Shown piece by piece: positions 7,337 to 42,031 of a stretch of DNA of 64,000 nt. A program made the position numbers and the translations under genes. Under the pieces are notes generated by a model that worked only from the letters and a program-made list of their open reading frames with translations, searched no databases and had not been told where the DNA came from. The stretch is taken from positions 288,001 through 352,000 of the forward strand of contig CAWHVC010000001.1 of the NCBI GenBank assembly GCA_963832745.1, in the 5' to 3' direction. The number at the start of each line of letters is the position of its first letter. Within the stretch, counting starts at the first letter, position 1. Origin of the DNA: Candidatus Bathyarchaeota archaeon. GTDB taxonomy: Archaea; Thermoproteota; Bathyarchaeia; Bathyarchaeales; Bathycorpusculaceae.

Positions 7337-7437
7337 ACTTGCAGCCCCCTTGACAATTAAGGGGGTCATATAAAAAAAGGTAGCCGTGGCATCGCAAAAG
7401 TTTAAAGCCATAAAAAACGGGTTCATTATGACCCAAA

Positions 7438-8166: not shown

Positions 8167-8167
8167 C

Positions 8168-9304: not shown

Positions 9305-9353
9305 AGAAAAAGGTTTAAACTCTGCACCCCTTCATGGTTGTTAGGGTATTTAT

Positions 9354-10565: not shown

Positions 10566-10568
10566 CTG

Positions 10569-11639
10569 GTGAATGCAGTTTTGGTTACTGTGTTGGGGTT
10601 AGATATTGGTGGCGCTAACACTAAAGCCGCTTATGTTCAAACTCAAAACGGTGCGATTAAAGAGGTTAAGATTGAAGTAGAATATTTTCCGGTTTGGAAG
10701 GAACCGCAAAACCTCACCGAAATTCTATGCAAACTTAAAGCGGGGGTTTTCGGGGGTAAACTTGATGCATTGGGCGTAACAATGACTGCAGAACTTTCTG
10801 ATGCATACAAAACTAAACATGAAGGCGTAACGCACATTTTGGGCTGTGTTAAAGATGCTTTTTCTGATGTGCCCAATTACGTTTTAAACACCGATGCCAA
10901 GTTAGTAACCCCAAAAGAAGCCACTGAAGCACCGCTAGAAGTTGCTGCTGCCAATTGGGCTGCGACAGGCTGGCTTGTTTCTCAATACTTTGAAAACTGC
11001 GTCGTTGTTGACATTGGCAGCACAAGTACCAGCATCATCCCGGTGACCTCGGGCAAGATTTCAGCAGAAGGCAAAACCGACCTCGACAAACTCATCTGTG
11101 GAGAATTGGTTTACACTGGCAGTTTACGTACGAATTTGGCGGCTATTGTGCAGTCTGTCCCAGTTAAAGGCTCCGTTGCCATGGTTTCCTCAGAATTGTT
11201 TGCATTAAGCGGCGACGTTCACCTTATTCTTGGCAACGTCACCAGCGAGCAATACACGAGCGAGACTGCGGATGGCAAAGGAAGAAGTCGCCGAGAAGCC
11301 TTCACACGTCTTGCACGACTGGTCTGCGCCGACACTGAAATGCTAACCGAAAAAGAACTTGCCACAATAGCTCAATACATTTACGAAAAACAAGTCCAGC
11401 AGGTAACAGCGGGTTTAAGCCAAGTCTATAAACGCGCCAAAAAGGCGGCGTCAACTAAGGTGCCTGTTTTGGTTGCAGGTTTGGGAAAAGATTTTCTAGC
11501 CCATAAAGCCGCTGAGCGGATTGGAGTTGATGTGGTAATGGATTTAGGTGACTTGCTGCCAAAAGGGGTTTCGTTGGCTGTTCCAGCGGTGGGCGTTGCG
11601 TTGATGGCTGCTAAACGTGTTGAGGGCGAAAAATCATGA
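10569..11639 (+). CDS. mfnF: Hydantoinase/oxoprolinase-family methanofuran synthesis protein
   Basis: GLDIGGANTK, TMTAELSD, AAANW, DIGSTST, GELVYTG..RT, TADG. Confidence 0.88.
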   Translation: MNAVLVTVLGLDIGGANTKAAYVQTQNGAIKEVKIEVEYFPVWKEPQNLTEILCKLKAGVFGGKLDALGVTMTAELSDAYKTKHEGVTHILGCVKDAFSDVPNYVLNTDAKLVTPKEATEAPLEVAAANWAATGWLVSQYFENCVVVDIGSTSTSIIPVTSGKISAEGKTDLDKLICGELVYTGSLRTNLAAIVQSVPVKGSVAMVSSELFALSGDVHLILGNVTSEQYTSETADGKGRSRREAFTRLARLVCADTEMLTEKELATIAQYIYEKQVQQVTAGLSQVYKRAKKAASTKVPVLVAGLGKDFLAHKAAERIGVDVVMDLGDLLPKGVSLAVPAVGVALMAAKRVEGEKS

Positions 11640-12335: not shown

Positions 12336-13181
12336 ATGGAATCTTCTGTTGTTGCTGTAGTAAAAGGTTCGCGTGGTCATGAACCAGTTTTTAAAGCTCT
12401 TGATATAGTTGATTACAAGAAAGTTTTAACCGGCTATAGCACGGTGCTTGTTAAGGTCAATTTTATCTGTGATAAAACTTGGGACACCGGAGCCACCACT
12501 GACCCGCTTGTCGTGGAAGCAATCATTATGAAACTTAAGGAGTTGCCAGTAAAAATTATAGTTGTCGAATCTGATGCGTCCATCACAAACGCGGACAAGG
12601 CCTTTGAAGCAACTGGCATGAAGGAAATGTGTATACGTAACGGGGTTGAATGGCTAAACCTGCGGCATGTTGAGGACAAGGTTAAACTGAAAATTCCAAA
12701 CGGCGAAACCCTAAAAGACATAACCGTGCCAAAACTCGTCACTGAATCCGCCGTAATCAGCGCCGCCAAACTAAAAACCCACATGGCAACCACAGTCACG
12801 TTAGGCATGAAAAACATGTTTGGCCTGTTGCCTGACAAGTTCAAAATGAAATATCACGCCAGAGGCATAAGTGATGTCATTTTAGACATAAACACTATAC
12901 TTAAACCCACATTAACAGTTGTTGACGGTTTTGTCGGCATGGAGGGACGCGGTCCAACAGACGGCGAACCAGTGCAAATGGATTTGATAATTGCTGGAAC
13001 TGACCCGGTTGCGACCGACGCGGCGTGCTGCAAAATCATGGGCATAGACCCAACTCAGGTCAAGCATATACGGAAAGCTGCTGAGAAAGGTTTGGGAAAA
13101 CTTGAAGCTGAAGTTGTCGGTGAAAAAGTAGAAGCTGTTGCAAAGCCGTTCAAAAAAGCCAAAGCCGATAAGAAAAAATAG
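12336..13181 (+). CDS. DUF362 family protein
   Basis: VKVN, ATT.P.VV, KLKTH...VTLGMKN.FG, DG..GMEG.GP..G, D.VA.D. Confidence 0.85.
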   Translation: MESSVVAVVKGSRGHEPVFKALDIVDYKKVLTGYSTVLVKVNFICDKTWDTGATTDPLVVEAIIMKLKELPVKIIVVESDASITNADKAFEATGMKEMCIRNGVEWLNLRHVEDKVKLKIPNGETLKDITVPKLVTESAVISAAKLKTHMATTVTLGMKNMFGLLPDKFKMKYHARGISDVILDINTILKPTLTVVDGFVGMEGRGPTDGEPVQMDLIIAGTDPVATDAACCKIMGIDPTQVKHIRKAAEKGLGKLEAEVVGEKVEAVAKPFKKAKADKKK

Positions 13182-26798: not shown

Positions 26799-29327
26799 TT
26801 ATTTCTTTCTGAGGATCAACAGACCAACAATTGCAACTACTGCAATAATTGCAATACCCATACCGATTGTGTACATTTCGTATGGTGTGTTTGCAATTTG
26901 TGTTGGTGTTGCTGTTGGTTGTGCTGCTGCGACTGTCATTGCATTTTGTGCGTATGAGCTGTAGTATGCTGCTGAGCCTGCGAATGTTGCATAGATTGTG
27001 TATTGTCCGTCAGTTGTTGGGGTAAATTCAAATGCGAAGTGACCGCTTGCATCGCTTGTTGTGTCACCGAGGTGTACTGGGTTACCGTTTGGATCAGTTG
27101 CATCGATTGAGATTGCGACACCTGTTGCGCTCATTGGTTGTGAGAATTGCTTGTATACGTAAAGCATCCATTCGCTTTGGTATTGGTCTGCAACGACTGG
27201 AACACCGTTCGGGAATCTTAATTGTAGTGCGTCACTTGAAACGCCTGGTGAGTTGTCCATGATTGTTCCTTTAAGCATAACTGCTGTGTTTGCTGCAACT
27301 GCTGTATCTGGTGCTGTAAGTGTCATTGTGCTTGGACCTTTGCCGATTGCATAGATTTGTTGGTCGTATGTGTCCATTGTTGCGATGATGCTGTCACCGA
27401 TGAGTGCGCGTCCACCCCATCTTGTTTGGCGGAATAGACCATTTGCTCTCCAGACCATTGCGCCTGTTTCTGCATCAAGTGCAAAGAACGGTGCGCCTCT
27501 TGGTTTAGGATCAAGTGCAGAGTGCTCTAAGCTACCAAAGTAAATCTTACCGTCTGAAACGAATAGTGGCATGATCCACCAGTTGTTTGTTAGGTATGAT
27601 TCGTGGTATGGGTCGTTTGCTGTTACGTTCCATTTGAGGTTGCCTGTGTTGATGTCATAGCAGTATACGATACCGCCGACGGTTGCTGAGTATAGGTTGT
27701 GGTATGCAATAACACGGTCAGGACCGAATGATGCTAGTACTGTGTCACTCCATGCGTCTGCATAGACTTGTGGTGCTGTCTTCCAAAGGTATGTACCGTT
27801 TGAAAGGCTGTATGCATAGTGAACTCTGTTTTCTTTTGACCAGAAGATTGCAACATTGTCCTCTTGACTCCATTGTGCCCAGCCTGCTTGGCCGATGCTG
27901 CTAATGGTTATGCTGCCTGTTCTCCATTCAGTTGGTGCTGGATTTGCAGTGTTGAATAATAATGCGCCTTCATGGCCTGTAGCTAAGCTGAATGCCCATA
28001 ATTGAACAGTGTCGTATGATACGCTGGCTAGAATTACTTTGTCACCGACGTATGCTTTTTGGATTGTTGTGTTGCCTGTTGCTGGGAATGTTCCGGCTGC
28101 TGCTGTGTTGTATGCTGGAATTGAAACGTTCAAGTCGTATCCGCGTGCTGTTGCATCGTAGGATACACCTTGGACTTGGCTACCCCAGCTTTCTGACATG
28201 CCGACTTTGCCTTTAGTTACAACATAGCTTGAGTTCCATTGTAGTAATCTGTAATCTGGGTTTGTTGAGTTTCCGTAGTTAACGATTGAGTATTTCATGA
28301 TTTCGCCGTTTGGACCGATGTAGTTGGTTCCGCCTGGTACGTTGGTCATGTTGTATCTCAAGATACCGCTTTCAGCGTCTACACCATACCAGGTGGTACC
28401 GCTAACTAGCCATATGTATGAGAATGCACCACGGTTGTTTAGACAGTCCCAGTATAGGGTTTGTCCGATGGATATTCTACCACCGCCGAAGCCATAGTTG
28501 TTTTCCCACAGAGTTTTGCCTGTGTGTAGGTCAACTGCAACGATTGTTTGTGTTGGTGCGTTGCTGACATATCTGTTATAGTATAGAACGCCGCTAATTA
28601 TGACTGAACCTGAGAATTTGCCTTCATAAGCGTCACCGTTCTGGTAACCGTGGTCGCCAGTGTCGCCGCCTACTAGACCGCCGTTAGTGTCGCCAATTGG
28701 CATAGTCCAAAGAATGTGTGCTGTTTCTGGTGCATCATTGTATGGTGCATATAGATTTTCTGGTCTTGTTGTCCAGCTGCCAGAGATTGACCACCATTCA
28801 CGAAGTTGTGAATCAATTGGTCTTGTCCAGTATTCAGTTGGAAGTGATTGACCCGGATAGGTTGGAACTGCGTCTTGTTGTACAGTTAGGTTTAGAACTT
28901 CGCTGTCAGCTGCGCCATAGAGTCCGCCCATTTGAGTGCCGTAAGAATTGAATGTATAGTTAGTTTCTGGGAAGTGACATTGTAACTGGTAAGTGCCGAC
29001 TTTCTCTGGTGTAAAGTATTGACCGACTGTGCCGGTTGACCATGTTTTCAGTGGACCGATTGTTGTAACTTGTCCGTCTGGATCAGTGATTGTACATGTG
29101 ACGTTCCAGCCATCACCGTCAGCGGCCAGATAGTTTAGGAGACCGAAGTTAACCAAAACTTTTTGACCGACGCCGACTGGGTTTGGAATTGCGTCAACAA
29201 ATGGATAAGCTGTGATTGTGTCTGCTGCAGTAACAGTGTTTGGCAATGCAAACATTGAGACAGTAAATGACAATACCATCAATATTGCGAGTGTTGAAAG
29301 TACAGTTTTACTTTTAAAATTTTTCAA
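26799..29327 (-). CDS. Large cell-surface PQQ-like beta-propeller repeat protein
   Basis: Signal peptide, PNPVGVGQ, repeated A.D..TG...W motifs, Ig-like C-terminal domain, TM plus RKK; visibly biased codon usage. Confidence 0.85.
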   Translation of the reverse strand: MKNFKSKTVLSTLAILMVLSFTVSMFALPNTVTAADTITAYPFVDAIPNPVGVGQKVLVNFGLLNYLAADGDGWNVTCTITDPDGQVTTIGPLKTWSTGTVGQYFTPEKVGTYQLQCHFPETNYTFNSYGTQMGGLYGAADSEVLNLTVQQDAVPTYPGQSLPTEYWTRPIDSQLREWWSISGSWTTRPENLYAPYNDAPETAHILWTMPIGDTNGGLVGGDTGDHGYQNGDAYEGKFSGSVIISGVLYYNRYVSNAPTQTIVAVDLHTGKTLWENNYGFGGGRISIGQTLYWDCLNNRGAFSYIWLVSGTTWYGVDAESGILRYNMTNVPGGTNYIGPNGEIMKYSIVNYGNSTNPDYRLLQWNSSYVVTKGKVGMSESWGSQVQGVSYDATARGYDLNVSIPAYNTAAAGTFPATGNTTIQKAYVGDKVILASVSYDTVQLWAFSLATGHEGALLFNTANPAPTEWRTGSITISSIGQAGWAQWSQEDNVAIFWSKENRVHYAYSLSNGTYLWKTAPQVYADAWSDTVLASFGPDRVIAYHNLYSATVGGIVYCYDINTGNLKWNVTANDPYHESYLTNNWWIMPLFVSDGKIYFGSLEHSALDPKPRGAPFFALDAETGAMVWRANGLFRQTRWGGRALIGDSIIATMDTYDQQIYAIGKGPSTMTLTAPDTAVAANTAVMLKGTIMDNSPGVSSDALQLRFPNGVPVVADQYQSEWMLYVYKQFSQPMSATGVAISIDATDPNGNPVHLGDTTSDASGHFAFEFTPTTDGQYTIYATFAGSAAYYSSYAQNAMTVAAAQPTATPTQIANTPYEMYTIGMGIAIIAVVAIVGLLILRKK

Positions 29328-30633: not shown

Positions 30634-30718
30634 GCCGGGATGGCAGAGTGGTTAACGCGCGGGCCTTGAGAGCCCGTGGATCATCCGGTCCGCATGGGTT
30701 CGAATCCCATTCCCGGCG
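30634..30718 (+). tRNA. tRNA-Ser(TGA)
   Basis: GCCGGGA/TCCCGGC acceptor; anticodon arm CGGGC-CTTGAGA-GCCCG; long variable arm; GGTTCGAATCC. Confidence 0.93.
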
Positions 30719-30736
30719 CCTAATTGTTCCAAACAA

Positions 30737-31258
30737 TTAATGTTTTTGTTGCTTTATCTTCTGTGTTAAAGCCAAAAGCCCCTTGATTATTTCTTTGGGA
30801 TTAGGAGGATTGCCAGGGATTTTTAGATCAACACTAAAAACTTTATCTGCACAGCCCAATACAGCGTAAGATTCGTTAAGGATTCCCGTTCCACATGCAT
30901 CGTCGCCGACTGCTACCACAAATTTGGGGTTTGGCATGGCGTCGTAGGTTTTTTTGACAGCGATTTCCATATTACGGGTGATTGCTCCAGTTACAATGAG
31001 AACGTCTGCGTGTCTTGGCGAGGCAACAAAGGTGATGCCGAAACGTTCAACGTCGTAATATGGCGTGGAAAGATTGTTTAGTTCGATTTCTGTGGCGTTG
31101 TCGCTTCCGCTATCGAGTTCACGGATTGCAAGGCTTTTACCGATGCAGCGGTCAACGTGACGTTTGAGTTCTATTCCTAAGGCTTCAAATTCGGCGTCTC
31201 GGAAAAGGATTGGTTCAGTTTTTTTCTTTTTGAAGACGACGGTTAAGTTTTTTGCCAT
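30737..31258 (-). CDS. Ehr/HycG/NuoB-like small subunit lacking the Fe-S cysteines
   Basis: PYYDVERFGI.FVASPRHAD is present, but the ligand positions read GSDNATEIE, GDDAC and IPGNPP instead of GSCNxCE, GxC and PGCPP. Confidence 0.85.
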   Translation of the reverse strand: MAKNLTVVFKKKKTEPILFRDAEFEALGIELKRHVDRCIGKSLAIRELDSGSDNATEIELNNLSTPYYDVERFGITFVASPRHADVLIVTGAITRNMEIAVKKTYDAMPNPKFVVAVGDDACGTGILNESYAVLGCADKVFSVDLKIPGNPPNPKEIIKGLLALTQKIKQQKH

Positions 31259-31270
31259 GTCATGTTTCTC

Positions 31271-32854
31271 CTATAGGTCGGTTCCAGCATAGGATAAGTT
31301 CATGCTTTTGTTGATTAATGGAAAATCGGGCACGATGTTGCCCAATACAGCGTGTTCGATGGCTTGCCAGTTGCAGAAAGATGCTGTTCTAACTTTATAA
31401 CGGTCGATTACACCGTTTTTTATGTACACCCAATGGATACTTTGGCCACGAGCACATTCAACCAACGCTAAAGCATACCCGTCACACATCTGATGCGCCG
31501 TCAAAACTTCACCAACTTTTAGGTGATTAATCAAATCCTGAATCATCTTTACCGAGTCAAGGGTTTCTTGCGCTTTTAGCTCGAATCTGGAAAGCACATC
31601 GCCATTTTGCTGTGTTCGGCCTTTGAGGTTCATTTCGCCGTAGAGTCCATAGGGGTGATTTATGCGGGTGTCTATCATCCGTCCTGATGCCCTTGCGATT
31701 GGACCTGTAATGTGCAGGGGTGCAAGCAGTTCTGGTTTTACTATGCCTGTTGTTTCAAAGCGGTCGATTAAAGAAAAGTACGTGTTGTCGAGTTCTTTTG
31801 CGGTTTTCAGGCGTTTGCAAAAGCCATGCAGGTATGTATTGAGGTTTTTGAGGGTCTGTTCAGGAACATCTTTGGTTAACCCACCGATAGTAATGATACC
31901 CTTTAGGAACCTTGAGCCGGTAAGTGCCTCATTAAACCGCAATATTTCTTCTCGAAGGATAAAGAATGAGCTAGCACCAGCTGGGTAAGCTACATCCACT
32001 ATCATGCCAGCCAAATCACCCAAATAAGAGTAAACACGTTCAAGCTCTAAAAAGATGGTACGCAACTGCAAAGCCCGCAAAGGCACAGAAATACCTGAAA
32101 TCTTTTCTATAGCCCTACAAAAAACAAAAGCGTTTGCAACTGTTTCATCGCCACTTATGGTTTCAGCGATTTTAACGCATTCCAGCGGCGTTTTGCCTTC
32201 AGCAAGCTTCTCGAGACCACGATGCTTGTAAAACATTCGTACTTCTAAATTGAAAATTGTCTCTCCGATTACGCTGAAACGGAAATGCCCCGGTTCAATG
32301 ATTCCAGCATGCACTGGACCCACGGGGATTTGATAAACACCCTCACCCTCAACCTTTTTGAAAACATAAACTTCTTGAGCGGTGCTGTTTGGAGGTCGGG
32401 TTTGAAGTGAACCATTTTTGAAAGACTTCAGCAGTGGATGGAAATCTTTAGGGTAAGTTTCGTGCAGGAACAGTTTGCGTTTGTCGTAGGCGTCATTAAA
32501 TTCTATGCCGAAACCATCAGTGACTTCGCGTTCGTACCAACAGGCTGAAGCGTAAACTTTGGCAATTGATGGGGCGTAGTTGCTGTCAAGGCGTATTTGG
32601 AGAATAGGGATTTCTTTGAAGCCAGCTTTTTCAAAAGCGTAAAGCAGCGTAAAGCCTTCTTGATTGCAAAAGTTTTGGACACAGAACAGGGCAATGAGTT
32701 CATAACCGTTTTCGGAAAGTTGCTTGATTGTTTCGAATAACTGGGCAGTTTCCACTTGCAGATAGAGTTCATTGTTTAACCCGTTAACTATGGCCTGGTT
32801 TGTTCCAAAGATTCTTTCAAATTCGGTCATTTGCGTCGGGAAAGTTTGCGGCAT
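31271..32854 (-). CDS. Ehr/HycE-like large subunit (NuoCD-like fusion) without NiFe ligands
   Basis: YEREV.D.FG, VGPVHAGIIEPGHFRF, Y.HRG.EK; ETISGD replaces the N-terminal CxxC and DFPLINKSMNLSYAGTDL replaces DPCxxC. Confidence 0.88.
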   Translation of the reverse strand: MPQTFPTQMTEFERIFGTNQAIVNGLNNELYLQVETAQLFETIKQLSENGYELIALFCVQNFCNQEGFTLLYAFEKAGFKEIPILQIRLDSNYAPSIAKVYASACWYEREVTDGFGIEFNDAYDKRKLFLHETYPKDFHPLLKSFKNGSLQTRPPNSTAQEVYVFKKVEGEGVYQIPVGPVHAGIIEPGHFRFSVIGETIFNLEVRMFYKHRGLEKLAEGKTPLECVKIAETISGDETVANAFVFCRAIEKISGISVPLRALQLRTIFLELERVYSYLGDLAGMIVDVAYPAGASSFFILREEILRFNEALTGSRFLKGIITIGGLTKDVPEQTLKNLNTYLHGFCKRLKTAKELDNTYFSLIDRFETTGIVKPELLAPLHITGPIARASGRMIDTRINHPYGLYGEMNLKGRTQQNGDVLSRFELKAQETLDSVKMIQDLINHLKVGEVLTAHQMCDGYALALVECARGQSIHWVYIKNGVIDRYKVRTASFCNWQAIEHAVLGNIVPDFPLINKSMNLSYAGTDL

Positions 32855-32861
32855 GCCATAT

Positions 32862-34334
32862 TCACCTTATACCTAGCTCCATCACGATTGTTGAGAGCAA
32901 ATCTGTTAACTGCTGAGGGAAAAAGACGCCCAAAACAAAGACTATGACAAGCAAAACCGCGATGGGCAGCTTCATGGCAAGTGAAGCCTTGAATTGTTTG
33001 GTTTCGCCAGAATCCTTTCGAGTTAAGATTTTTAAAAGAAATATTCCAAAGGCTGCGGCTACAAAAAGAAAAATGAACAATAAACTCAGCGTTAAAATTG
33101 GCGAAAGAATTGTTGATTGAATCAGAATCGAAATTTTTGCTAAGAAAATCGCTGATAATGGCATGCCTATTATTGCTACGCCACCCAAGATTAGGCTCCA
33201 TGATGCGAAGGGTTGTAGTTTAAGGGCGTTTTTGATGTTTTCCAATCGCACGCCTCCAAATTGGTGGTGCATGATACCTGAAGAAAGAAAAAGAGACCCT
33301 TTGGTGAATGCGTGAGCTAACACGTAGAAAAGTGTCCAGAAAATCGCCACAGGTGTTCCAAGTCCAATGCCGACAAGCAAGAATCCCATGTTTTCAACGG
33401 TTGAGTAAGCTATTACCTTTTTCAGGTTTACTTGGGTTAGCATCGTTAAAGCCGCAATAAGCATACTAATGACTCCAAAAGCAATCAGGAAGACTGAAAC
33501 TTTGAATCCAATTGAAGTTTGTGCTGCAATGGCATACATGCGGATAATGCCATAAACCCCAACACTTGTAATGCTGCCCGAAAGGATAGCGCTGACTGGT
33601 GCAGGAGCCTTTGAGTGTGCACTTGGAAGCCATGCATGGAAGGGAACGACACCACTTTTTGCTGCAAATCCAACGAATGTAAAGATGAATGCTGCGAAAA
33701 CTATGGCTGGTGAAAGCGTTGAAGCGACACCCATTAGTGTGCTCCAGTTAAGTGTACCGACGCCCAATGAGTTTTCGGTTAAGGTGAATAAAAGTATAAG
33801 ACCAATGAAGGCGAACAGCATACATGTTGAAGTTATAAAAATATACTTCAATGTGGCACCGATGTTTTTAACAGCATTAAGTATCACGATGAGGATGCCT
33901 GAAAAAGCGGTCGTCAACTCTGCAAGTATCCAGAACAAGGCCAGATTGTTAGAGAAGAAAGTGAAGGTTATTTCCACTAGAAGCAGGTTCAACGCAACAT
34001 AGAAAAATTTTAGATTGCCGCGGTCCATTTCGCCTATTTCGATTGAGCCTTCAATGTATCCTCGTGCATATACGGCTGCAGCTAGAAACAGCACAGCTGA
34101 AATAAGGACTTCGTAGATACACAAATGGTCCATGAAGAAGTAGCCGCTTCCCACTGAATAGTTGGGAACTTGGGTGAAGCCTAAACTATAAAGCCCCAAA
34201 AGTAGGAAGCTCGCTGGAAGAATAATGGCAAGAAAATTGATGGTTTTATGCGATTTAGCTATAATTGTTAATAGTACAATTACAAGGCCCAGTACACCGT
34301 AAAGTGTAAAGATGGTTTCTGTTGAAAGAATCAT
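32862..34334 (-). CDS. hyfF: HyfF-like antiporter-type membrane subunit
   Basis: FW..AE.TT, KY, K.G..PFH.WLP.AHS.AP.P.SA, K..IAYST.ENMG, H...K..LF. Confidence 0.85.
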   Translation of the reverse strand: MILSTETIFTLYGVLGLVIVLLTIIAKSHKTINFLAIILPASFLLLGLYSLGFTQVPNYSVGSGYFFMDHLCIYEVLISAVLFLAAAVYARGYIEGSIEIGEMDRGNLKFFYVALNLLLVEITFTFFSNNLALFWILAELTTAFSGILIVILNAVKNIGATLKYIFITSTCMLFAFIGLILLFTLTENSLGVGTLNWSTLMGVASTLSPAIVFAAFIFTFVGFAAKSGVVPFHAWLPSAHSKAPAPVSAILSGSITSVGVYGIIRMYAIAAQTSIGFKVSVFLIAFGVISMLIAALTMLTQVNLKKVIAYSTVENMGFLLVGIGLGTPVAIFWTLFYVLAHAFTKGSLFLSSGIMHHQFGGVRLENIKNALKLQPFASWSLILGGVAIIGMPLSAIFLAKISILIQSTILSPILTLSLLFIFLFVAAAFGIFLLKILTRKDSGETKQFKASLAMKLPIAVLLVIVFVLGVFFPQQLTDLLSTIVMELGIR

Positions 34335-35071
34335 TTCGTTTTATCCCCCGTTACTTTCTCTAAATCTGCTTCAGCTACTTCATCATCCTCATCATCACCG
34401 AAAACTCGCCAACCGTTTTGAAACGGATTTAATCGTGAATGAAACTCTTCAATTGAGGAGTCAATGCCAAAGGCAAGTATAGCCGCTAAAAGCGTCAAGA
34501 TGATTAAATCTATGACTATTAAAATTTCAACCATCAAAGGTAACTCAGTCAAAAAGAGACCAAAAAGCAGGACACCATTTTCCATGGTTAGGTAACCGAC
34601 GATGTTTGTGATTGTTTGTTTACGGGTGAAAATAACCAGCATCCCAATGAAGAGCAAAGATACACCGATTGTTGCACCGACAAAGAATAGGCCACTTAAC
34701 TCTAAGGGAGCTAAAAGAGGCGTGAATGCAACGTAAACAAAGAGTATGATTATAATGCTCACAATAAGGGATTGATTGGGTGAAAGGAAGTGAAATTGGG
34801 CGTCTCGTTTAACATTTAATTTTTTGAGGATGTGTCTCATGAATTTTGGGATTATCAGGGTTTTGCTGGCGATTGTAAGTATCGCAAGAATTAAAGGTGT
34901 ATAGCTGCCGCTATCAATAAAGAACAAAAATGCAATCAACGCTAAAAGGAATGATTGAAGCGCATATGTTTTTACAAGCGACATAATGTCTCGTTTAACG
35001 ATTATTATAGCAGCGGTCACCAGAACCAGAACGATAAGTAACTGCGCCACGTTTTCAATTGCGGGAATCAT
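34331..35071 (-). CDS. hyfE: HyfE-like membrane subunit
   Basis: YALQS, K..IIP, GYLTMENG, ELP..VE....D. Confidence 0.82.
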   Translation of the reverse strand: MIPAIENVAQLLIVLVLVTAAIIIVKRDIMSLVKTYALQSFLLALIAFLFFIDSGSYTPLILAILTIASKTLIIPKFMRHILKKLNVKRDAQFHFLSPNQSLIVSIIIILFVYVAFTPLLAPLELSGLFFVGATIGVSLLFIGMLVIFTRKQTITNIVGYLTMENGVLLFGLFLTELPLMVEILIVIDLIILTLLAAILAFGIDSSIEEFHSRLNPFQNGWRVFGDDEDDEVAEADLEKVTGDKTK

Positions 35072-36013
35072 TTAAGCAAAAACCTCGATTATTATGGTTA
35101 TCACTGCAAGGAACAGCGCCAAAGCAAAAAGCGCTGGAAGATGGAACAAACGGGATTTTGCACATGCCGACTCGAAAAGCCCAATGAAAACCGCGAGAAC
35201 TACGGCTTTTATAAGAAATGCTGCTAACGCGACAAGAATTGACGCTGCTGAGAAGTCGGAGGTTAATCCCCATGGAATCAGCGTGTTAATCAGCAGAGCC
35301 ATGAGCAGCATCTGTTTCATTGCACTGGAAAGCTCCATGAGTGCCAAGTTTTTGCCTGACTGTTCAAGAAGCATGGCTTCGTGAATCATAGTGAGTTCAA
35401 GATGGGTTTCGGGGTTATCTACTGGGACTCTTGAGGATTCAACGATTATTATGATGAATATGGAGATGGCTATGAGGATGAGGACTGGGTCTACAAGGAA
35501 GCTGGAGTTTAGGGCGCCTCGAAAAATGTCAGGAATGCTTGTTGTTTTAAACATAATTGCTAATGCCGCGAAGACCACGATCGTGATTGGCTCGATAAGG
35601 GCTGACATTGCCATTTCCCGTGAACTGCCCATGCCGCCAAACGCGCTGCCGGCGTCAAGCCCAGAGAGTGCCATAAAAAACTTTGCCAAAGCCAGCAGGT
35701 AGATGAATAGGATGATGTTTCCGATGAGGTCTGTTGGTTGCGGTATGAAAAGCAGGGGAACAAAAAGGCTGGCTGTAACTAGGGCAGCGATGTTAATGAG
35801 CGGTGTTGCCTTCATTATCCACGACGAGTTTTGTGAGTAAACGGTTTCTTTTTTGAAGAGCTTTGCCAAATTATAGTATGTTTGAAGTAGTGGTGGCCCT
35901 TTTCTTCGCTGTGTGACTGCTTTTACTTTTTTGATTAAACTGATGAATAACGGCGAAAGTAGCAGGGTGAATAGAATATTTAGTATTCCGTAAATTAGTA
36001 AGTCAAAACTCAT
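35072..36013 (-). CDS. hyfC: HyfC/HycD (NuoH-like) membrane subunit
   Basis: Q.R.GPP..Q.Y..L.KL, LD.GS.FG.MGSSRE, E..R.PVDNP.THLELTMIHEAM.LE.SG. Confidence 0.88.
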   Translation of the reverse strand: MSFDLLIYGILNILFTLLLSPLFISLIKKVKAVTQRRKGPPLLQTYYNLAKLFKKETVYSQNSSWIMKATPLINIAALVTASLFVPLLFIPQPTDLIGNIILFIYLLALAKFFMALSGLDAGSAFGGMGSSREMAMSALIEPITIVVFAALAIMFKTTSIPDIFRGALNSSFLVDPVLILIAISIFIIIIVESSRVPVDNPETHLELTMIHEAMLLEQSGKNLALMELSSAMKQMLLMALLINTLIPWGLTSDFSAASILVALAAFLIKAVVLAVFIGLFESACAKSRLFHLPALFALALFLAVITIIIEVFA

Positions 36014-37950
36014 GCAAACCACCAAATCAACAGTAAAAAGATAACAATCGTTATGAAAGCGTACGCGATATGCAGGTCAATGTCGCCACGTTGGAGAGCA
36101 TTGACTTTTAGGGAAACTTTTTTGATAAAATTAGCTACAGGCAGGTAGAGATATTCTTCAAAGAACTTCATCAGTTTAAGCTCAGCCTTACCGCTTTTGA
36201 AGACCGCTTGATTATTATCGTAATATTCTCGTTCGCTTTTCTTTTCCGTACGAAAAATCGATTTTAGGATTGTTACGATTGGTTCGGAGAAGCCTGAAGC
36301 TGAATACTCCATCAGATGAGTCTGAGTTGTGATGCCGCAACCCCATGTCTCTGAAAGCCGCTCCATTTTGCATGCTCTCTGCCTTAATGCAGCCCAAGCA
36401 AATACGTAAAAAACTGCAAGCGCCGAACCAATCAGAAGCATGTTTGGCAACTGTAGGGAGTATCCGAGTATTTGGAAGATTTGGTAAGAGAAAACGCCCA
36501 AACCGACACATAAAACGGCCAGTATCGCTGGCCCGATAAGCATGGAGCGAGGGGCTTCTTTGGCGGCTTTGGCTTTTTGTGAACGTGGCAACGCAAGGAA
36601 AGAGATTCCGAAGGCTTTTACGAAACATGCCGCTGCAAGAGCACTTGTGAAAGCGAACACGGCAAGGGCAACAATGAGAAGCAGAACGAGGAACGGGTTG
36701 CCTAAAGCAGGGGATTGGAAGAATACTTGAAAAATCATTAACTCGCTTACGAAACCGTTGAAAGGGGGCAAGGCGGAGATGGAGATTGCCCCGACCAGAA
36801 ACAGCAGTGCAGTGTGGGGCATTGGTTTGATTAAGCCACCCATTTCTTCAATGTTTTTTGTTTCCGTAGAGTTTACTACGGCGCCTGTTGCCATGAATAG
36901 CAGGCTTTTGAAGGCTGCATGGTTAAATGAATGGAAGAGCGCACCTAATAGTGCAATCAACGCTATGCTTGGGAGACCGTAAACGGTGAAGATTGTGTAT
37001 AAGCCGACGCCTACAAGGATTACGCCAACGTTTTCGATGCTTGAGTAAGCGAGCATCTTCTTGAGATCATGCTCCTTCAACGCATAAATGACGCTTAACA
37101 ATGCGGAGGTGATACCCATTGCAAGAATCAGCAGGCCCCACCATGACTCCAAAGGCAACAAGATGAGAAACCTGATTAAACCGTAAATGGCGACTTTAAT
37201 CATAACTCCCGACATGAGCGCGGAAATGTTTGATGGGCTTGCTGGATGGGCGTATGGGAGCCATTTGTGGAATGGGATTATGCCTGCTTTTATGCCGAAC
37301 CCCAAAAATAGGAAGACAAAAGCGATTGAAGTGATCAGGGGCTGCGCTGTTATGGGTTGGATGTTGAAGGTACCTGTGGTTACGTACAAGAACAGGAACG
37401 CAAAGAACAAGAAAACAGTGCTCAGATTGGTCATTACGAAGTAGAACATGCCTGCTTTGAGAGTTTCCTTCTTTTCATATTCTACCATGACTAAAAGGAA
37501 AGAGGTTAATGCCATTGTTTCCCAGAAAAACAAAAAAGAAAACATCGATGAAGAAGAAACAACAAGAACCATCGAAACAATAAACAAATTCATTAAGAAT
37601 ACAAGAAGATTTTTTCTGCCCTCACTATGTATATGCTCAACATACTGGATTGAATAAATTTGAACCGCCAAAGATACAATAGATACCAACGCGATGAAAA
37701 ACGCTGAGAGCTTATCGATAAAGAATGAGAACTCGAAGGGCGGCGTAATCCGGTAAGTCTGTGTCGTTACCGTTGTGTTTGTAAGGATGATTTCTGCGGC
37801 AAACGCGAGCAGGACAATGCTGGAAAAACAGCCCAGCAGGAACGATGCTTGTCTTGGCAGTTTGTTATTTTTCATTTTTATTGTTGCCAGGGGCGTTAAT
37901 GCGCCGAGTATAAACACGGCTAAACCAACAGGAAATAGGGTTTCAAGCAT
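36010..37950 (-). CDS. hyfB: HyfB-like antiporter-type membrane subunit
   Basis: FLFFWE, GFGIKAG..PFH.WLP.AHP..PS.ISALMSG, LAYSS.EN.G, NHA.FK.LLF, PPFNGF.SE, TW.CG. Confidence 0.88.
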   Translation of the reverse strand: MLETLFPVGLAVFILGALTPLATIKMKNNKLPRQASFLLGCFSSIVLLAFAAEIILTNTTVTTQTYRITPPFEFSFFIDKLSAFFIALVSIVSLAVQIYSIQYVEHIHSEGRKNLLVFLMNLFIVSMVLVVSSSSMFSFLFFWETMALTSFLLVMVEYEKKETLKAGMFYFVMTNLSTVFLFFAFLFLYVTTGTFNIQPITAQPLITSIAFVFLFLGFGIKAGIIPFHKWLPYAHPASPSNISALMSGVMIKVAIYGLIRFLILLPLESWWGLLILAMGITSALLSVIYALKEHDLKKMLAYSSIENVGVILVGVGLYTIFTVYGLPSIALIALLGALFHSFNHAAFKSLLFMATGAVVNSTETKNIEEMGGLIKPMPHTALLFLVGAISISALPPFNGFVSELMIFQVFFQSPALGNPFLVLLLIVALAVFAFTSALAAACFVKAFGISFLALPRSQKAKAAKEAPRSMLIGPAILAVLCVGLGVFSYQIFQILGYSLQLPNMLLIGSALAVFYVFAWAALRQRACKMERLSETWGCGITTQTHLMEYSASGFSEPIVTILKSIFRTEKKSEREYYDNNQAVFKSGKAELKLMKFFEEYLYLPVANFIKKVSLKVNALQRGDIDLHIAYAFITIVIFLLLIWWFA

Positions 37951-38356
37951 AACCTATTCCACTTTAGAGTAAGCCCAGTTTTGCCTTGTCAGCTGCAAAT
38001 AAGAAAAGCATTATTTCGTTAACAATATTCAATCTTGCGTTGAGGTTGGCTTTGATTTTGGTGCCAACGGTGCCATCGATTAGCTGATTATTCATTAAGG
38101 TCGCGCCATCCAACCTCACAGTCCGCTAAAAAAGCTTTACGGAACAAGACAAGCCATTTTATTATCACTCAAACACTAGACCAAAATAACGTTTGTGCAG
38201 TGAAAAAATTTTCAATTTATGCATTTAATCTACGAAAATATTATACTGTTTAAGTATATACAAATGGTTTTCTAAACAGTTAAAAAATAGTAAGAAACAA
38301 GAATACTTGCCCCAAACAGCTAAAACACTCACAAGGCAAATGGATGAGAAAAACGA

Positions 38357-39220
38357 TTAGCCTAGCTCAAACGTTGTTACACCAAAAATTTTTTCCAAAG
38401 GCAACTTGGGTGCAGCTTTCGTGTACATTCTTACCGTACTAAAAACCGGCGTCATACCATGTGATTTTGCAAGCTTAACACCTGCAATGTTTGGTTCGGG
38501 AACATCCAAAAATACTTGCTCGTTTGGGACGGTAGAGGCTAAACTTGAAAGCAGTAACTCAGCAGTCTCAGCGTCTTCGGCAAATAAGGGTCCAATCTTG
38601 TGACCTCGGAAACATTTGCGAATTACACCATAACCCTTGATAGCTGCAGAGTCAGGCTCCTGTACCGTTAGGGCGTGAGCATCTTTTTGATAAAGCCAGC
38701 ATTCCAAAAATCTCAACCGTTTAGCAGGGAAAAACTTGGAATCAAAAACGGCAACTCTGTCTAAATCGCTTTTCTTTATTGGAACACAATTTTTTGAACT
38801 TGCACCGTTGAAGACGCCTGCATATCTGGTGTTGCTGTAAGCAGTTTTAAAACCAGCTTGCTCGTAACGGCTTTGCATGTTAACAACGCCGTCTATACCC
38901 AAGTTTAGGTTTTGGCTTTTGCTTAGGACAAATTGCTGAAGTGCAGTACCCACGCCTTGTCCTCGAAAATCAGGCATTACAATGTAAAAACCGGCAAAAG
39001 CAAAATTTTTTGAGTATTTTACTATAGAGACTGTGCCTAAAATTTTTTCGTCAAGTTTTGCCGCGTAGAAACCTGTGGGGTCAGTATGGTAGAAGCATTC
39101 TGCATCGTGGATTCCAGGGTCCCAGCTTTCGATTTTTGCCCAGTAGATGGCGGTTTCAACTTCTGCCTGAGTCATTTGGGTTATTGTTAGATGCTTGAGC
39201 GTTGAAGCGTCATTGTTCAT
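38357..39220 (-). CDS. GNAT family acetyltransferase (tandem GNAT, YitH-like)
   Basis: E.W.PG..D, FRGQG.G, LDG-like IDGV, KIGPLFA, G.TTFELG. Confidence 0.85.
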   Translation of the reverse strand: MNNDASTLKHLTITQMTQAEVETAIYWAKIESWDPGIHDAECFYHTDPTGFYAAKLDEKILGTVSIVKYSKNFAFAGFYIVMPDFRGQGVGTALQQFVLSKSQNLNLGIDGVVNMQSRYEQAGFKTAYSNTRYAGVFNGASSKNCVPIKKSDLDRVAVFDSKFFPAKRLRFLECWLYQKDAHALTVQEPDSAAIKGYGVIRKCFRGHKIGPLFAEDAETAELLLSSLASTVPNEQVFLDVPEPNIAGVKLAKSHGMTPVFSTVRMYTKAAPKLPLEKIFGVTTFELG

Positions 39221-39283
39221 AATGTTTAATGGGTTTTTTATGTTTATAAGAATCACTCACTCGGGTTTTGATGTCCTACATTT

Positions 39284-39877
39284 TTATTTTAGGGGGTCTG
39301 TTGGAAGAATAATTTTTTGGTGTACCTCATTTAGAACATCTGCAACGGCTAGGTAGATGGCGCTTGATCCACAGATAACGCCTTCAATTCCTGTTAAATT
39401 GTTTAAAGTAAAGCTTCCAAATAGTACGGGGTTATCCAAGAAACTTGTTATTGATAACATAAAGAACAGTACAGCCGTAGTCACAAAGACTACTTGAAGA
39501 GTTTTTGTAGCCTTCAAAGTGCCGTAAGCCATAGCAAGCGTAAAGATCGCCCATAACAGAAAATATGCACCCAAAGAATTTGTTGACGGCGATTGGAGTC
39601 CAGTAAATATGGTTGTTTCTGGCAGTAGAATCAGCATTACTAAGGACCACCAAAATAGTCCATATGAAGTAAATACTACGGTGCCGAAAGTGTTGCCTCG
39701 ACGGTACTCCATTAAACCTGCAATTATCTGCGCTAAACCACCATAAGCTAAACCCATAGAAAGAATCATAGTGTCAAGTTGAAAAGCGCCTGCATTATGG
39801 AGATTCAAAAGCACAGTTGTTATACCAAAACCGAGTAGTCCCAAAGGTGCAGGGTTTGCAAGTTTTTGTGTACTTAT
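39284..39877 (-). CDS. satP: Acetate uptake transporter (GPR1/FUN34/SatP family)
   Basis: KLANPAPLGLLGF signature upstream of the annotated ORF start, YGG..Q..AG, NTFG...F.SYG.FW. Apparent ATA start at 39877. Confidence 0.88.
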   Translation of the reverse strand: MSTQKLANPAPLGLLGFGITTVLLNLHNAGAFQLDTMILSMGLAYGGLAQIIAGLMEYRRGNTFGTVVFTSYGLFWWSLVMLILLPETTIFTGLQSPSTNSLGAYFLLWAIFTLAMAYGTLKATKTLQVVFVTTAVLFFMLSITSFLDNPVLFGSFTLNNLTGIEGVICGSSAIYLAVADVLNEVHQKIILPTDPLK

Positions 39878-40060: not shown

Positions 40061-41563
40061 ATGACAACTGACGAAGCTTCAGAAAAAAGAATTAGCGAGT
40101 ACAAAAAAAGACTCGAAGAGTTGGAAAGAGAAAACCAAAAACTCCGCGCAGTAAATCAGGAATTGGCTAAATCACAAATTGCCGTCCTTGAAGATGCAAT
40201 ACAGGGAGCTAAGGACATAGTTGCAAACAATGAAGAAACCATTAAAAACGGCAAAAAAATGGTTGAACTAACAAGTACTGTAGAAAAATCCGTTCAAGAA
40301 GTAGCAAAGCTGGCGCTTGAAACAACCAGTACAATCGACAAGGTTGCAAGCGCTGCTAAAAACGTTGGAGAAGTCGCAAGTAAAGTTTACACTGAAGCGG
40401 ACAACGCAAATAAAGAAACCGCCAAAGTTTTAGAAATGGGCAAACAGGCTGCGAACGTTTCCAACCAAATGGCAATCGGTATGCAACAAGTAAGCACTGC
40501 ATCACAGCAGGTTTCAACTGGCGCTCAAAAGCTTGCGGATCTTTCACAAAACGCTGCGAGAAGCACTGAAGCTTTAAAGAAAGTAATGGATGACGCGGGC
40601 ATAATCGCTAAAGAAGCGTCAAACGTTACTGGGGAAGCGTTGAAGAAGTCAAAAGAAGCAAACGAGAAAAGCCAAAAAGGTCTTCAGGCAATTGAAAACA
40701 TTAAAACTAACATTATCAAGGTTTCTGATGCAGTAACGTCTATGGTTAGCTCAATTGATCAAGTTGGGCAAATGGCTAACTCTGTTTCAGACATTGCGGG
40801 TCAAACTAACATGCTTGCACTTAATGCTGCTATTGAAGCTGCAAGAGCAGGCGAGGCAGGAAGAGGATTTGCAGTTGTCGCTGACGCCGTAAAAGGTTTA
40901 GCAGGTCAATCTAAAGTAGCAGCCCAATCATCAATCAGTCTTGTTAAGAACATTAAAGACGCTGGTAGTCAAACTAGCAGCATCTCAGGCCAATCACAAG
41001 TGGGCGCTCAAGAAGGAGCCACAGTTGTTTTAGCTGCTATAAAAGAGTCTGAAGGCATCGCCATTATAATGGATGTTATGAATGGAAAAGTAAACAACCT
41101 TGCATATGGCGTCGAAAAAGGTCTTCAGGAAATCAACGCGGTTACAAGAACCATCGAGGAAGTTGCAAGCATCGCGGAAGAAAGCTCATCAGCATCACAA
41201 GAGGCGTCATCAGCCACTGAAGAACAGACAGCAGCAGCTCAACAGATGGCAAGCATCGCCCGAGATGTTTCTTCAGTAGCTGAAGGAGTAGAAAAATCAA
41301 CAAAGAGAGTACTTGTAAACGCTGAGGAAGTAGCAAGACTCGCCGATAACGTAAGTACCGACGCAGCCATCGTTGAAAAGTCCGCTAAAGAAATTGAAAC
41401 GTACGCTGAGACAGTGGCTTTTACCACAAGTGAAGTGGGAGAAAACGCTCATTCAGTAGTTACTGCCGCTGAAGAAACAAACGTTAACCTGCAAAAACTC
41501 ATCGATAAAAGAACAGCTATACTTAACGATTTAATGCAAAAATACAACGTAAAAAAAGATTAG
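40061..41563 (+). CDS. Soluble methyl-accepting chemotaxis protein
   Basis: [30 protein letters not shown] signalling tip; no TM segments. Confidence 0.9.
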
Positions 41564-41572
41564 GCGAACAAT

Positions 41573-42031
41573 ATGGCGAAATCTGTTCATAACGGCGACT
41601 TTCAAATTGTCAACTTCACCGTAGACAACATAAACTATGGGGTACCAGTTGAGCAAGTACGTGAAGTCCGAGACATGCAAGCAGTAACTCCTGTTCCAGG
41701 AGCCCCAGCGTATGTTGAAGGCGTAACTAACTTACGTGGACAAATCATTACCGTTTTTGATCTGCGTAAACGTTTAGGGCTTGCTGAAAAGAAAGGCTCA
41801 GGCGAAAAAATCTTGATAATTGACTTGGACAAATCAGCAGTAGGCGTCGTGGTTGATGCAGTAACTGAAGTTTCGACGATCCGAGAAGCGGATGTTGAAA
41901 AAAATATTGAAGTTACATCTGCACTTGGCGACTTCATTTTGGGCGTTGGAAAACAGAATGACCAGTTAGCGGTCATTTTGGATATTTCTAAAATCGTGCT
42001 TAAAACCAAAACGCAAGAATTGCCCAATTAA
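41573..42031 (+). CDS. cheW: Chemotaxis adaptor CheW
   Basis: V.EV......VPGAP.YVEGV.NLRGQII.V.DLR, G.VVD.V. Confidence 0.92.
   Translation: MAKSVHNGDFQIVNFTVDNINYGVPVEQVREVRDMQAVTPVPGAPAYVEGVTNLRGQIITVFDLRKRLGLAEKKGSGEKILIIDLDKSAVGVVVDAVTEVSTIREADVEKNIEVTSALGDFILGVGKQNDQLAVILDISKIVLKTKTQELPN

What the first reader, a model, noticed from the sequence alone, without database searches (positions are those of the whole stretch)
30737..37950. Complex I/Ehr-like membrane complex with no recognisable redox cofactor site
Seen: the operon hyfB-C-E-F plus large and small subunits is intact and tightly packed. The large subunit lacks both NiFe CxxC motifs, as known for Ehr complexes. The small subunit has also replaced all four canonical [4Fe-4S] ligands of the NuoB/HycG fold: GSCNxCE is GSDNATE, GxC is GDD, PGCPP is PGNPP. 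These are multi-base codon changes (GAC, ACA, GAT, AAT) inside otherwise conserved motifs, so random error or decay is unlikely. No NuoI/HycF ferredoxin gene or domain is present. The antiporter-like HyfB/HyfF keep their conserved Glu/Lys/His residues. Inference: this could be a non-redox, ion-gradient-driven transporter or coupled enzyme built on the complex I scaffold, or the D/T/D/N set may bind a different metal.
Basis: partly seen in the sequence, partly recalled or inferred. Interest (0 to 1): 0.8.

Follow-up and report, generated by a model that had tools for sequence, protein, structure and literature searches.

The report
Cofactor-free hydrogenase-like membrane complex (Ehr)
This archaeon carries an intact six-gene relative of membrane hydrogenases and respiratory complex I that has lost every metal-cofactor site yet is strongly conserved, so it probably moves ions without redox chemistry; the family (Ehr) is already known, but its job is not.

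Summary
Window 30737-37950 (minus strand) is a tightly packed six-gene operon: HyfB-like, NuoH/HyfC-like, HyfE-like, HyfF-like, fused NuoC-NuoD large subunit, NuoB/HycG small subunit. Alignments to solved MbhJ, HycG, NDUFS7 and HycE put D53, T56, D120 and N150 at the four [4Fe-4S] cysteines. They put S234, E237, S521 and G524 at the four NiFe cysteines. No ferredoxin-type subunit is present.

This is not decay. Among the best 80 related loci, D53 is kept in 65 of 65 small subunits, D120 and N150 in 64 of 65, with both synonymous codons in use. dN/dS to the closest relative is about 0.05-0.09 for all six genes. The same genome has a separate group-4 hydrogenase cluster with all cysteines intact.

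The operon belongs to the known Ehr family (ehrABCDLS of Methanospirillum hungatei, Geobacter Ehr). It occurs patchily in Bathyarchaeia, methanogens, Altiarchaeota, DPANN archaea, Dehalococcoidia and Moduliflexus. No seventh gene is conserved beside it.

The best reading is a redox-independent ion translocator, which is inferred and not shown. It is a new member of a known kind, and this scan has flagged the same family on other DNA at least eight times.

The parts
36010..37950 (-). ehrA/HyfB-like antiporter-type subunit (NuoL-like), 646 aa
   Evidence: Pfam Proton_antipo_M 1.9e-58 and Proton_antipo_N; NCBIfam PRK08667 870 bits, above its cut-off. E144, K221, K252, K348 and E403 are kept in at least 95% of 55 family members.
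35072..36025 (-). ehrB/HyfC-like NuoH-type subunit, 317 aa (TTG start as listed)
   Evidence: Pfam NADHdh 7e-37. Loop residues R199, D203, H208, E210, E216 and E221 are kept in at least 95% of 57.
34331..35071 (-). ehrC/HyfE-like small membrane subunit, 246 aa
   Evidence: NCBIfam PRK11492 (hydrogenase 4 membrane subunit) E 2e-16, below cut-off; no Pfam hit. E164, E182 and D188 are kept in at least 95% of 61.
32862..34334 (-). ehrD/HyfF-like antiporter-type subunit (NuoM/N-like), 490 aa
   Evidence: Pfam Proton_antipo_M 8e-45; NCBIfam PRK08676 576 bits, above its cut-off. E139, K226, H233 and K345 are kept in at least 95% of 69, and K400 in 88%.
31271..32854 (-). ehrL: fused NuoC-NuoD / HycE-like large subunit without NiFe ligands, 527 aa
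   Evidence: Pfam Complex1_30kDa + Complex1_49kDa. The best solved relative is HycE 7Z0S_E, E 6e-64, with S234/E237 and S521/G524 at the four NiFe cysteines. S234, D236, E237, S521 and G524 are kept in 60 of 60.
30737..31258 (-). ehrS: NuoB/HycG-like small subunit without [4Fe-4S] ligands, 173 aa
   Evidence: Pfam Oxidored_q6 2e-24. D53, T56, D120 and N150 sit at the four ligand positions. D53 is kept in 65 of 65; D120, N150 and C122 in 64 of 65.
37951..38356 (-). 406-nt AT-rich spacer upstream of the operon, presumed promoter region
   Evidence: Read directly. No Rfam family matches it at gathering score. Promoter function is inferred only.

Best explanation
This is an intact ehrABCDLS-type operon: a six-subunit membrane complex descended from Hyf/Hyc-type (formate-hydrogenlyase-like) group-4 hydrogenases. 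SHOWN: all four NiFe ligands, all four proximal [4Fe-4S] ligands and the ferredoxin-type subunit are gone. The replacements are invariant in orthologues and under strong purifying selection. The charged residues of the two antiporter-like subunits, the NuoH loop and the HyfE-like subunit are kept. No partner gene is conserved next to the operon. INFERRED: with no wire for electrons, the complex cannot be driven by redox chemistry. It most likely works as a gradient-driven secondary ion translocator, exchanging a cation for protons in an Mrp-like way. One path would run through the antiporter-like subunits. The other would run through the NuoH/HyfE 'E-channel' up into the peripheral cap. That cap (EhrS + EhrL) has its former cofactor pockets lined with invariant carboxylates and polar residues: D53, E57, E59, D119, D120, N150; S234, D236, E237, S521. 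It would serve as a cytoplasmic ion or proton funnel, or as a gate, instead of a catalytic site.
For: Cofactor ligands are absent by alignment to solved structures. Only one conserved cysteine remains in EhrS (C122), and no CxxC-type motif exists in any of the six proteins. No Fer4 domain lies in or beside the operon. Orthologues keep the replacements with free synonymous codon use (also 119 of 120 database homologues carry GSDN and 107 of 120 carry PGNPP). dN/dS against locus L038 is about 0.056 (S), 0.059 (L), 0.082 (A), 0.059 (B), 0.054 (C) and 0.087 (D), with dS near saturation. Ion-path residues are invariant, and E187 in the fully conserved stretch GPVHAGIIEPGHFRFSVIGE is kept. The six-gene unit is the only conserved content in 80 loci from at least 8 phylum-level groups; the next gene cluster occurs in 16 of 80 loci. 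DPANN genomes of 0.8-0.9 Mb carry it as their only NuoB homologue. The host makes real metal enzymes elsewhere: it has a group-4 hydrogenase cluster with CxxC, GxC and GCPP motifs, NiFe motifs and a Fer4 subunit, and a group-3 type hydrogenase. The genome (99% complete) has no MrpG.
Against: No call shows transport or the absence of metal. A plain antiporter does not obviously need a roughly 700-residue peripheral cap, yet that cap is the most conserved part. The host already has four CPA-type Na+/H+ exchangers. Mrp co-occurs with the operon in 2 of 5 other carrier genomes tested, so there is no exclusivity. In Geobacter, Ehr subunits were more abundant on formate, and authors have proposed FDH-Ehr redox complexes for other Ehr clades. 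Asp-ligated Fe-S clusters exist in other proteins (recalled, not tested). No expression data could be obtained.
Confidence: 0.5

Rival explanations
1. The complex couples the membrane gradient to non-redox chemistry at the remodelled peripheral site. One example is CO2/HCO3- interconversion, as in cyanobacterial NDH-1MS (CupA) or DabAB. Another is a metal-dependent, non-redox reaction using the invariant Asp, Asn, Cys, Ser and Glu residues.
For: The former cofactor pockets are not filled at random. They carry invariant polar and acidic residues in both subunits, and the cap is more conserved than the membrane subunits (mean column identity 0.69 and 0.60 against 0.49-0.65). In Methanoregula-type loci a beta-carbonic anhydrase lies two genes upstream (cluster 11, 11 loci).
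Against: The carbonic anhydrase neighbour is confined to one lineage and is divergently oriented. No enzyme-like neighbour is conserved across lineages. Other cysteine-free clades use different residue sets at the same positions, which argues against one catalytic metal geometry.
Confidence: 0.15
2. It is still a redox enzyme. A non-cysteine-ligated cofactor sits in EhrS or EhrL, and an unlinked donor (ferredoxin, formate dehydrogenase) docks directly.
For: Published genome papers treat Ehr as ferredoxin- or formate-linked. C122 plus D53, D120 and N150 are invariant and could in principle ligate something.
Against: Three of four ligands would be Asp, Asp and Asn, and C122 is not at a ligand position. 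Some related clades have no cysteine at all in the small subunit. There is no NuoI/HycF wire, no NiFe site, and S/E at the aligned NiFe positions in place of the quinone-site residues of NuoD. No oxidoreductase gene is conserved nearby in 80 loci. Ehr expression in Nitrospira moscoviensis did not rise with H2, as one paper reports.
Confidence: 0.15
3. The complex is an accessory module that docks onto another machine, such as the A-type ATP synthase, and has no transport cycle of its own.
For: In one Woesearchaeota genome the operon follows atpA-atpB on the same strand after a 27-nt gap.
Against: This arrangement was seen in only 1 of 5 intact DPANN loci examined (L091, L126-L129). It was also the only case among 55 immediate upstream neighbours.
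Confidence: 0.07
4. It is a decaying or functionless relic of a hydrogenase operon.
For: All catalytic ligands are lost. One DPANN genome holds only a broken remnant of the small-subunit gene.
Against: All six frames are intact. dN/dS is about 0.05-0.09 at near-saturated dS. The replacement residues are invariant across archaea and bacteria. The operon has been transferred between domains and kept.
Confidence: 0.02

Closest known systems
Ehr (Ech-/energy-converting-hydrogenase-related) complexes: ehrABCDLS of Methanospirillum hungatei (Mhun_1817-1822) and the Ehr cluster of Geobacter sulfurreducens (GSU0739-45)
   Same: It is a six-gene cluster with a NuoL-like, NuoH-like, HyfE-like and second antiporter-like subunit, plus a large and a small subunit. 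The large subunit lacks the NiFe cysteines (passages read). Methanomicrobiales and Methanosarcina orthologues are 64-70% identical to the window's small subunit.
   Different: The passages I could read mention only the missing NiFe cysteines. One paper still assumes ferredoxin reduction. Here the small subunit is also shown to lack all four Fe-S ligands.
E. coli formate hydrogenlyase Hyc/Hyf (group 4a [NiFe]-hydrogenase; solved as 7Z0S)
   Same: HycE is the best solved relative of the large subunit (E 6e-64), and HycG aligns over the ligand region. The gene order matches hyfB-C-(D)-E-F-G-(H)-I. NCBIfam best hits are hydrogenase-4 subunits B, F and E.
   Different: There is no HyfA or HyfH/HycF ferredoxin subunit, no HyfD, no NiFe ligands and no Fe-S ligands. 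The hydrogenase-4 B/F/E hits are all below the equivalog cut-offs.
Pyrococcus furiosus MBH (6CFW) and respiratory complex I (NuoB/C/D/H/L/M/N)
   Same: It shares the module architecture: a NuoB-NuoD-NuoH junction plus antiporter-like subunits with the Glu/Lys/His relay.
   Different: There is no N2-type or proximal cluster and no NuoI/MbhN. No NuoA, NuoJ or NuoK genes are recognisable as such, and there is no Mrp-type Na+ module.
Mrp (Mnh/Pha) cation/proton antiporter
   Same: It is the proposed working analogue: a redox-independent multi-subunit ion exchanger built around NuoL- and NuoM/N-like subunits.
   Different: There are no MrpE, MrpF or MrpG homologues (no PF03334 match in the genome). 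This complex has a NuoH-like subunit and a large cytoplasmic cap that Mrp lacks. It is not a member of the Mrp family.

Membership tests
Ehr complex (ehrABCDLS type) | One cluster encodes homologues of the group-4 hydrogenase large and small subunits, NuoH, a HyfE-like protein and two antiporter-like subunits | tested here: met
   The same six-gene order is seen in the related loci.
Ehr complex (ehrABCDLS type) | The large subunit lacks both NiFe-binding CxxC motifs | tested here: met
   Alignment to HycE 7Z0S_E gives S234/E237 and S521/G524 at the four cysteine positions.
Ehr complex (ehrABCDLS type) | Orthology to the named Ehr proteins of Geobacter sulfurreducens or M. hungatei | not tested
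The link rests on Methanomicrobiales and Methanosarcina orthologues found and on the descriptions read.
Group 4 [NiFe]-hydrogenase | L1 and L2 CxxC motifs ligate the NiFe centre in the large subunit | tested here: not met
   The host's other cluster does meet this (RVCGIC and DPCFSC).
Group 4 [NiFe]-hydrogenase | Four cysteines ligate the proximal [4Fe-4S] in the small subunit | tested here: not met
   D53, T56, D120 and N150 sit at those positions. The paralogue P0272 has all four cysteines.
Group 4 [NiFe]-hydrogenase | A 2x[4Fe-4S] ferredoxin-type subunit (HycF/NuoI/MbhN) lies in the cluster | tested here: not met
   No Fer4 domain is found in ORFs of 26.8-42 kb. It is also absent from the conserved gene set of 80 loci.
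Respiratory complex I (Nuo/Fpo) | Cluster N2 ligands in NuoB, a NuoI subunit, and NuoA/J/K membrane subunits | tested here: not met
   The host's other cluster has NuoA-, I-, J- and K-like genes.
Mrp antiporter | MrpE, MrpF and MrpG small subunits together with MrpA and MrpD | tested here: not met
   PF03334 (MrpG) has no match in the 99%-complete genome. MrpE and MrpF were not searched separately.

The most novel reading that the evidence does not exclude
The complex-I/hydrogenase scaffold is used here, and in hundreds of anaerobe species, as a purely non-redox machine. The former NiFe and Fe-S pockets were rebuilt into an invariant carboxylate-lined chamber that loads or gates ions for the antiporter-like subunits, or carries out gradient-driven non-redox chemistry. 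That would be the first working 'complex I without electrons'.
Probability: 0.45. Interest if true: 0.75.

Novelty: new member of a known kind. Interest (0 to 1): 0.45.

Why it matters
Ehr complexes have been catalogued since the mid-2000s and occur in methanogens, nitrifiers, Geobacter, and CPR and DPANN organisms, but their function is unknown. Genome papers still draw them as hydrogenases or ferredoxin oxidoreductases. If the whole complex is cofactor-free but strongly selected, metabolic reconstructions that give it H2 or ferredoxin chemistry are wrong. In that case the coupling machinery of complex I can run, or be run by, ion gradients alone, which bears on how redox energy is passed to the antiporter modules. 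The question is testable: one paper states that homologous operons exist in the genetically tractable Methanosarcina acetivorans and M. mazei. An orthologue with the same GSDN, GDDAC and PGNPP motifs lies in the isolate record Methanosarcina sp. DH2.

Tried and rejected
1. Structure prediction of the small subunit: the job failed remotely, and new jobs were not accepted. There is therefore no model, no fold search, and no distances between the replacement residues.

2. Sequencing runs for the operon: none was listed, and no RNA holder was listed.

3. Riboswitch or regulatory RNA upstream, in the window and in six bacterial loci: only tRNAs were found at gathering score.

4. GNAT acetyltransferase as a conserved partner. 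A GNAT gene sits just upstream in the window, in L038 and in 14 Methanomicrobiales loci. The window's GNAT and the Methanoregula GNAT are not orthologous (19% identity, E 0.04). I treat this as chance.

5. It is not a general feature of this clade.

6. Mrp exclusivity: the host lacks MrpG, but 2 of 5 other carrier genomes have it. This is not informative.

7. One origin of cysteine loss. On a weakly resolved FastTree of 136 small subunits, the cysteine-poor rows need 9 changes, and at least 4 are forced by starred branches. This suggests recurrent loss, but the tree is too weak to rely on.

8. Literature. Coppi 2005 and Marreiros 2013 are not held. Searches returned no paper that I read stating that the Ehr small subunit lacks its Fe-S ligands. 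I read passages only, not whole texts or supplements.

9. Complex prediction was not used, because the small/large pairing is a textbook one.
Full report
**What is there.** On the minus strand of the window, six ORFs run head to tail from 37950 down to 30737. Junctions range from a 16-nt overlap to a 12-nt gap.

| Gene | Coordinates | Length | Family evidence |
|---|---|---|---|
| HyfB/NuoL-like antiporter subunit | 36010-37950 | 646 aa | Proton_antipo_M/N; NCBIfam PRK08667 870 bits, above cut-off |
| NuoH/HyfC-like | 35072-36025 | 317 aa | NADHdh |
| HyfE-like | 34331-35071 | 246 aa | PRK11492, E 2e-16, below cut-off |
| HyfF/NuoM-N-like antiporter subunit | 32862-34334 | 490 aa | Proton_antipo_M; PRK08676 576 bits, above cut-off |
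| Fused NuoC-NuoD large subunit | 31271-32854 | 527 aa | Complex1_30kDa + Complex1_49kDa |
| NuoB/HycG-like small subunit | 30737-31258 | 173 aa | Oxidored_q6 |

A tRNA-Ser(tga) on the other strand ends 16 nt beyond the small-subunit gene. A 406-nt AT-rich spacer precedes the first gene. Homologue names and the related loci place the organism in Bathyarchaeia. The genome is 3.02 Mb in 5 contigs and 99% complete.

**The cofactor sites.** HMMER alignments to solved chains fix the correspondence.
- MbhJ (6CFW_J) 'sgsCngCdie' and HycG (7Z0S_G) 'cggCngCeie' align with 'sgsDnaTeie'.
- Mitochondrial NDUFS7 'gsCangg' aligns with 'gdDacgt', and 'pgCpp' with 'pgNpp'.
- So D53, T56, D120 and N150 occupy the four [4Fe-4S] ligand positions.
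- The large subunit's best solved relative is HycE (7Z0S_E, E 6e-64). There 'rvCgiCgfah' aligns with 'tiSgdEtvan' and 'dpCysCtd' with 'nlSyaGtd'. S234, E237, S521 and G524 therefore stand at the NiFe ligand positions.
- No ORF of 80 aa or more between 26.8 and 42 kb has a ferredoxin-type domain.
- None of the six proteins has a conserved CxxC-type motif. The only conserved cysteine in the small subunit is C122, which is not a ligand position.

**Not decay, not error.**
- Of P0001 and its 119 best database homologues (70-90% identical), 119 of 120 have GSDN, 116 of 120 have GDDACG, and 107 of 120 have PGNPP. For PGNPP, 12 were not matched by my pattern and 1 has PGDPP.
- In the orthologues from the best 80 genomic loci, D53 is kept in 65 of 65. 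D120, N150 and C122 are each kept in 64 of 65, with both synonymous codons used about equally. Position 56 varies (T/A/P/V).
- In the large subunit S234, D236, E237, S521 and G524 are kept in 60 of 60.
- Against the closest relative (L038), dN/dS is 0.068/1.20 (small), 0.121/2.04 (large), 0.114/1.38, 0.082/1.39, 0.158/2.94 and 0.181/2.08 for the four membrane genes. The ratios are roughly 0.05-0.09, with dS near saturation.
- The same genome holds a separate group-4 hydrogenase cluster. Its small subunit has SGACNGCD, GACACSGG and PGCPP. Its large subunit has RVCGIC and DPCFSCTDR. It also has NuoA-, H-, I(Fer4)-, J-, K- and L/M/N-like genes. A Hox-type cluster is present as well. So the host makes these cofactors, and the losses are specific to this operon.

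**Ion machinery.** Across 55-69 family members the canonical charged residues are invariant or nearly so.
- HyfB-like subunit: E144, K221, H228, K229, K252, H340, H344, K348, E403.
- HyfF-like subunit: E139, K226, H233, K345, and K400 in 88%. It has no TM8 lysine.
- NuoH-like loop: R199, D203, H208, E210, E216, E221.
- HyfE-like subunit: E164, E182, D188.
- In the large subunit the stretch GPVHAGIIEPGHFRFSVIGE is fully conserved. It includes E187, which aligns with the Glu of group-4 hydrogenases that I recall as part of the proton path to the NiFe site (recalled, not tested).

**Distribution and context.**
I examined the best 80, at 63-87% identity.
- By record title these are 27 Methanomicrobiales, 21 Bathyarchaeota, 13 Methanosarcinales (including the isolate record Methanosarcina sp. 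DH2), 4 Dehalococcoidia, 2 Moduliflexota, 2 Aenigmatarchaeota, 1 Woesearchaeota, 1 Thermoplasmatota, and 9 unresolved, among them Altiarchaeota.
- All-against-all clustering of 1397 ORFs found the antiporter-like cluster in 74 loci, the large subunit in 78, the small in 69, and the NuoH-like and HyfE-like in 63 each. Many loci are cut by contig ends. The next cluster occurs in 16 loci.
- Flanks are lineage-specific. In Methanoregula they are a beta-carbonic anhydrase and a GNAT; in Methanosarcina, RibD_C and a P-type ATPase; in Bathyarchaeia, Ku and LigD.
- The operon is patchy. None of 150 other sampled Bathyarchaeia genomes, including five of the same genus, has a hit above 50% identity. The 29 best of those hits all carry four cysteines, so they are the hydrogenase paralogue.
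- In the phylum of a Woesearchaeota carrier, 6 of 251 sampled genomes have the operon's small subunit, and one of these is a broken remnant.
- A large-subunit tree puts the window in a starred Bathyarchaeia clade of 18 rows. It places Moduliflexus and Dehalococcoidia sequences among archaeal ones (quick search). This indicates transfer between domains.

**The wider family.** Among the best 150 cluster representatives at 50% identity, 135 have all four ligand columns filled.
- Of those 135, 92 have four cysteines, 16 have three, 6 have two, 4 have one, and 17 have none.
- The cysteine-free ones use varied residue sets (D/A/D/N, S/E/G/D, N/E/G/N, D/E/D/S). Several have no cysteine anywhere.
- On a weakly resolved tree they fall in at least four places.
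- A cluster-less small subunit is thus a common state of Ehr-type complexes, not a peculiarity of this window.

**What is in print.**
- Anderson et al. 2009 (passage read) describe the M. hungatei operon Mhun_1817-1822 and homologues in M. acetivorans and M. mazei. [quoted passage not shown]
- Gunsalus et al. 2016 name it ehrABCDLS and still group it with enzymes that 'likely reduce Fd'.
- Other passages read say the same: no NiFe site, function unknown.
- None of the passages I read mentions the loss of the Fe-S ligands. The two founding papers, Coppi 2005 and Marreiros 2013, are not held, so I cannot say the point is unpublished.
- This scan has noted the same family at least eight times on other genomes. 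Those notes agree with this reading but are not independent evidence.

**How it most likely works.**
- Shown: there is no canonical electron path, the ion-path residues are intact, selection is strong, and the six-gene unit is self-contained.
- Inferred: it is a redox-independent, gradient-driven ion translocator, probably exchanging a cation for protons. The remodelled, carboxylate-lined cap would act as an ion or proton funnel or a gate (confidence 0.5).
- Against a simple antiporter: the cap is the best-conserved part and has no obvious role in one. The host has four CPA exchangers. Mrp co-occurs with the operon in 2 of 5 other carriers.
- Rivals: gradient-driven non-redox chemistry at the cap (0.15); a cryptic redox enzyme with an unlinked donor (0.15); an accessory to another machine such as the ATP synthase, next to which it sits in 1 of 5 intact DPANN loci (0.07); a relic (0.02).

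**Limits.** There is no structure model, no expression data, and no biochemical data. The trees are quick or FastTree searches. Orthologue statistics cover only the best 80 of at least 595 loci.

Noticed in passing
window 30634-30720 (+); L112 10622-10705 (-): A tRNA-Ser(tga) gene lies convergently 16 nt past the end of the small-subunit gene. In a Moduliflexus locus a tRNA gene also sits about 110 nt after the small-subunit gene. This could be a chance match or a trace of tRNA-targeted insertion of the operon.
   Followed up: no
window 38357-39844 (-): Directly upstream on the same strand lie a GNAT acetyltransferase with an Acetyltransf_18 domain (299 aa) and an AceTr/SatP-type acetate uptake transporter (186 aa). 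The closest relative, L038, keeps the same GNAT. Methanoregula loci have an unrelated GNAT at the same place (19% identity).
   Followed up: partly
window 40061-42031 (+): A methyl-accepting chemotaxis protein (500 aa) and CheW (152 aa) are encoded in this Bathyarchaeia genome.
   Followed up: no
L118 (G000:C1:121000-137000), about 7371-10914: The host's genuine group-4 hydrogenase cluster shows its antiporter-like genes as split ORFs (353 + 231 aa, 223 + 341 aa). These may be frameshifts, assembly errors or natural splits.
   Followed up: no
L065 (Altiarchaeales record): Two copies of the operon's membrane genes lie on one contig about 10 kb apart. The second copy runs off the fetched stretch.
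   Followed up: no
L130 (G177:C7), about 12446-12964: A DPANN genome holds only a small-subunit remnant interrupted by a stop codon. It sits among unrelated genes with no other operon members, so it is a decayed copy.
   Followed up: partly
L091 162-5356: In a Woesearchaeota genome of about 0.9 Mb the operon follows the A-type ATP synthase atpA and atpB genes on the same strand after a 27-nt gap.
   Followed up: partly
window 26799-29327 (-): A large protein (842 aa) with PQQ-like beta-propeller and filamin/invasin-type repeats is encoded here. It is probably a surface protein.
   Followed up: no
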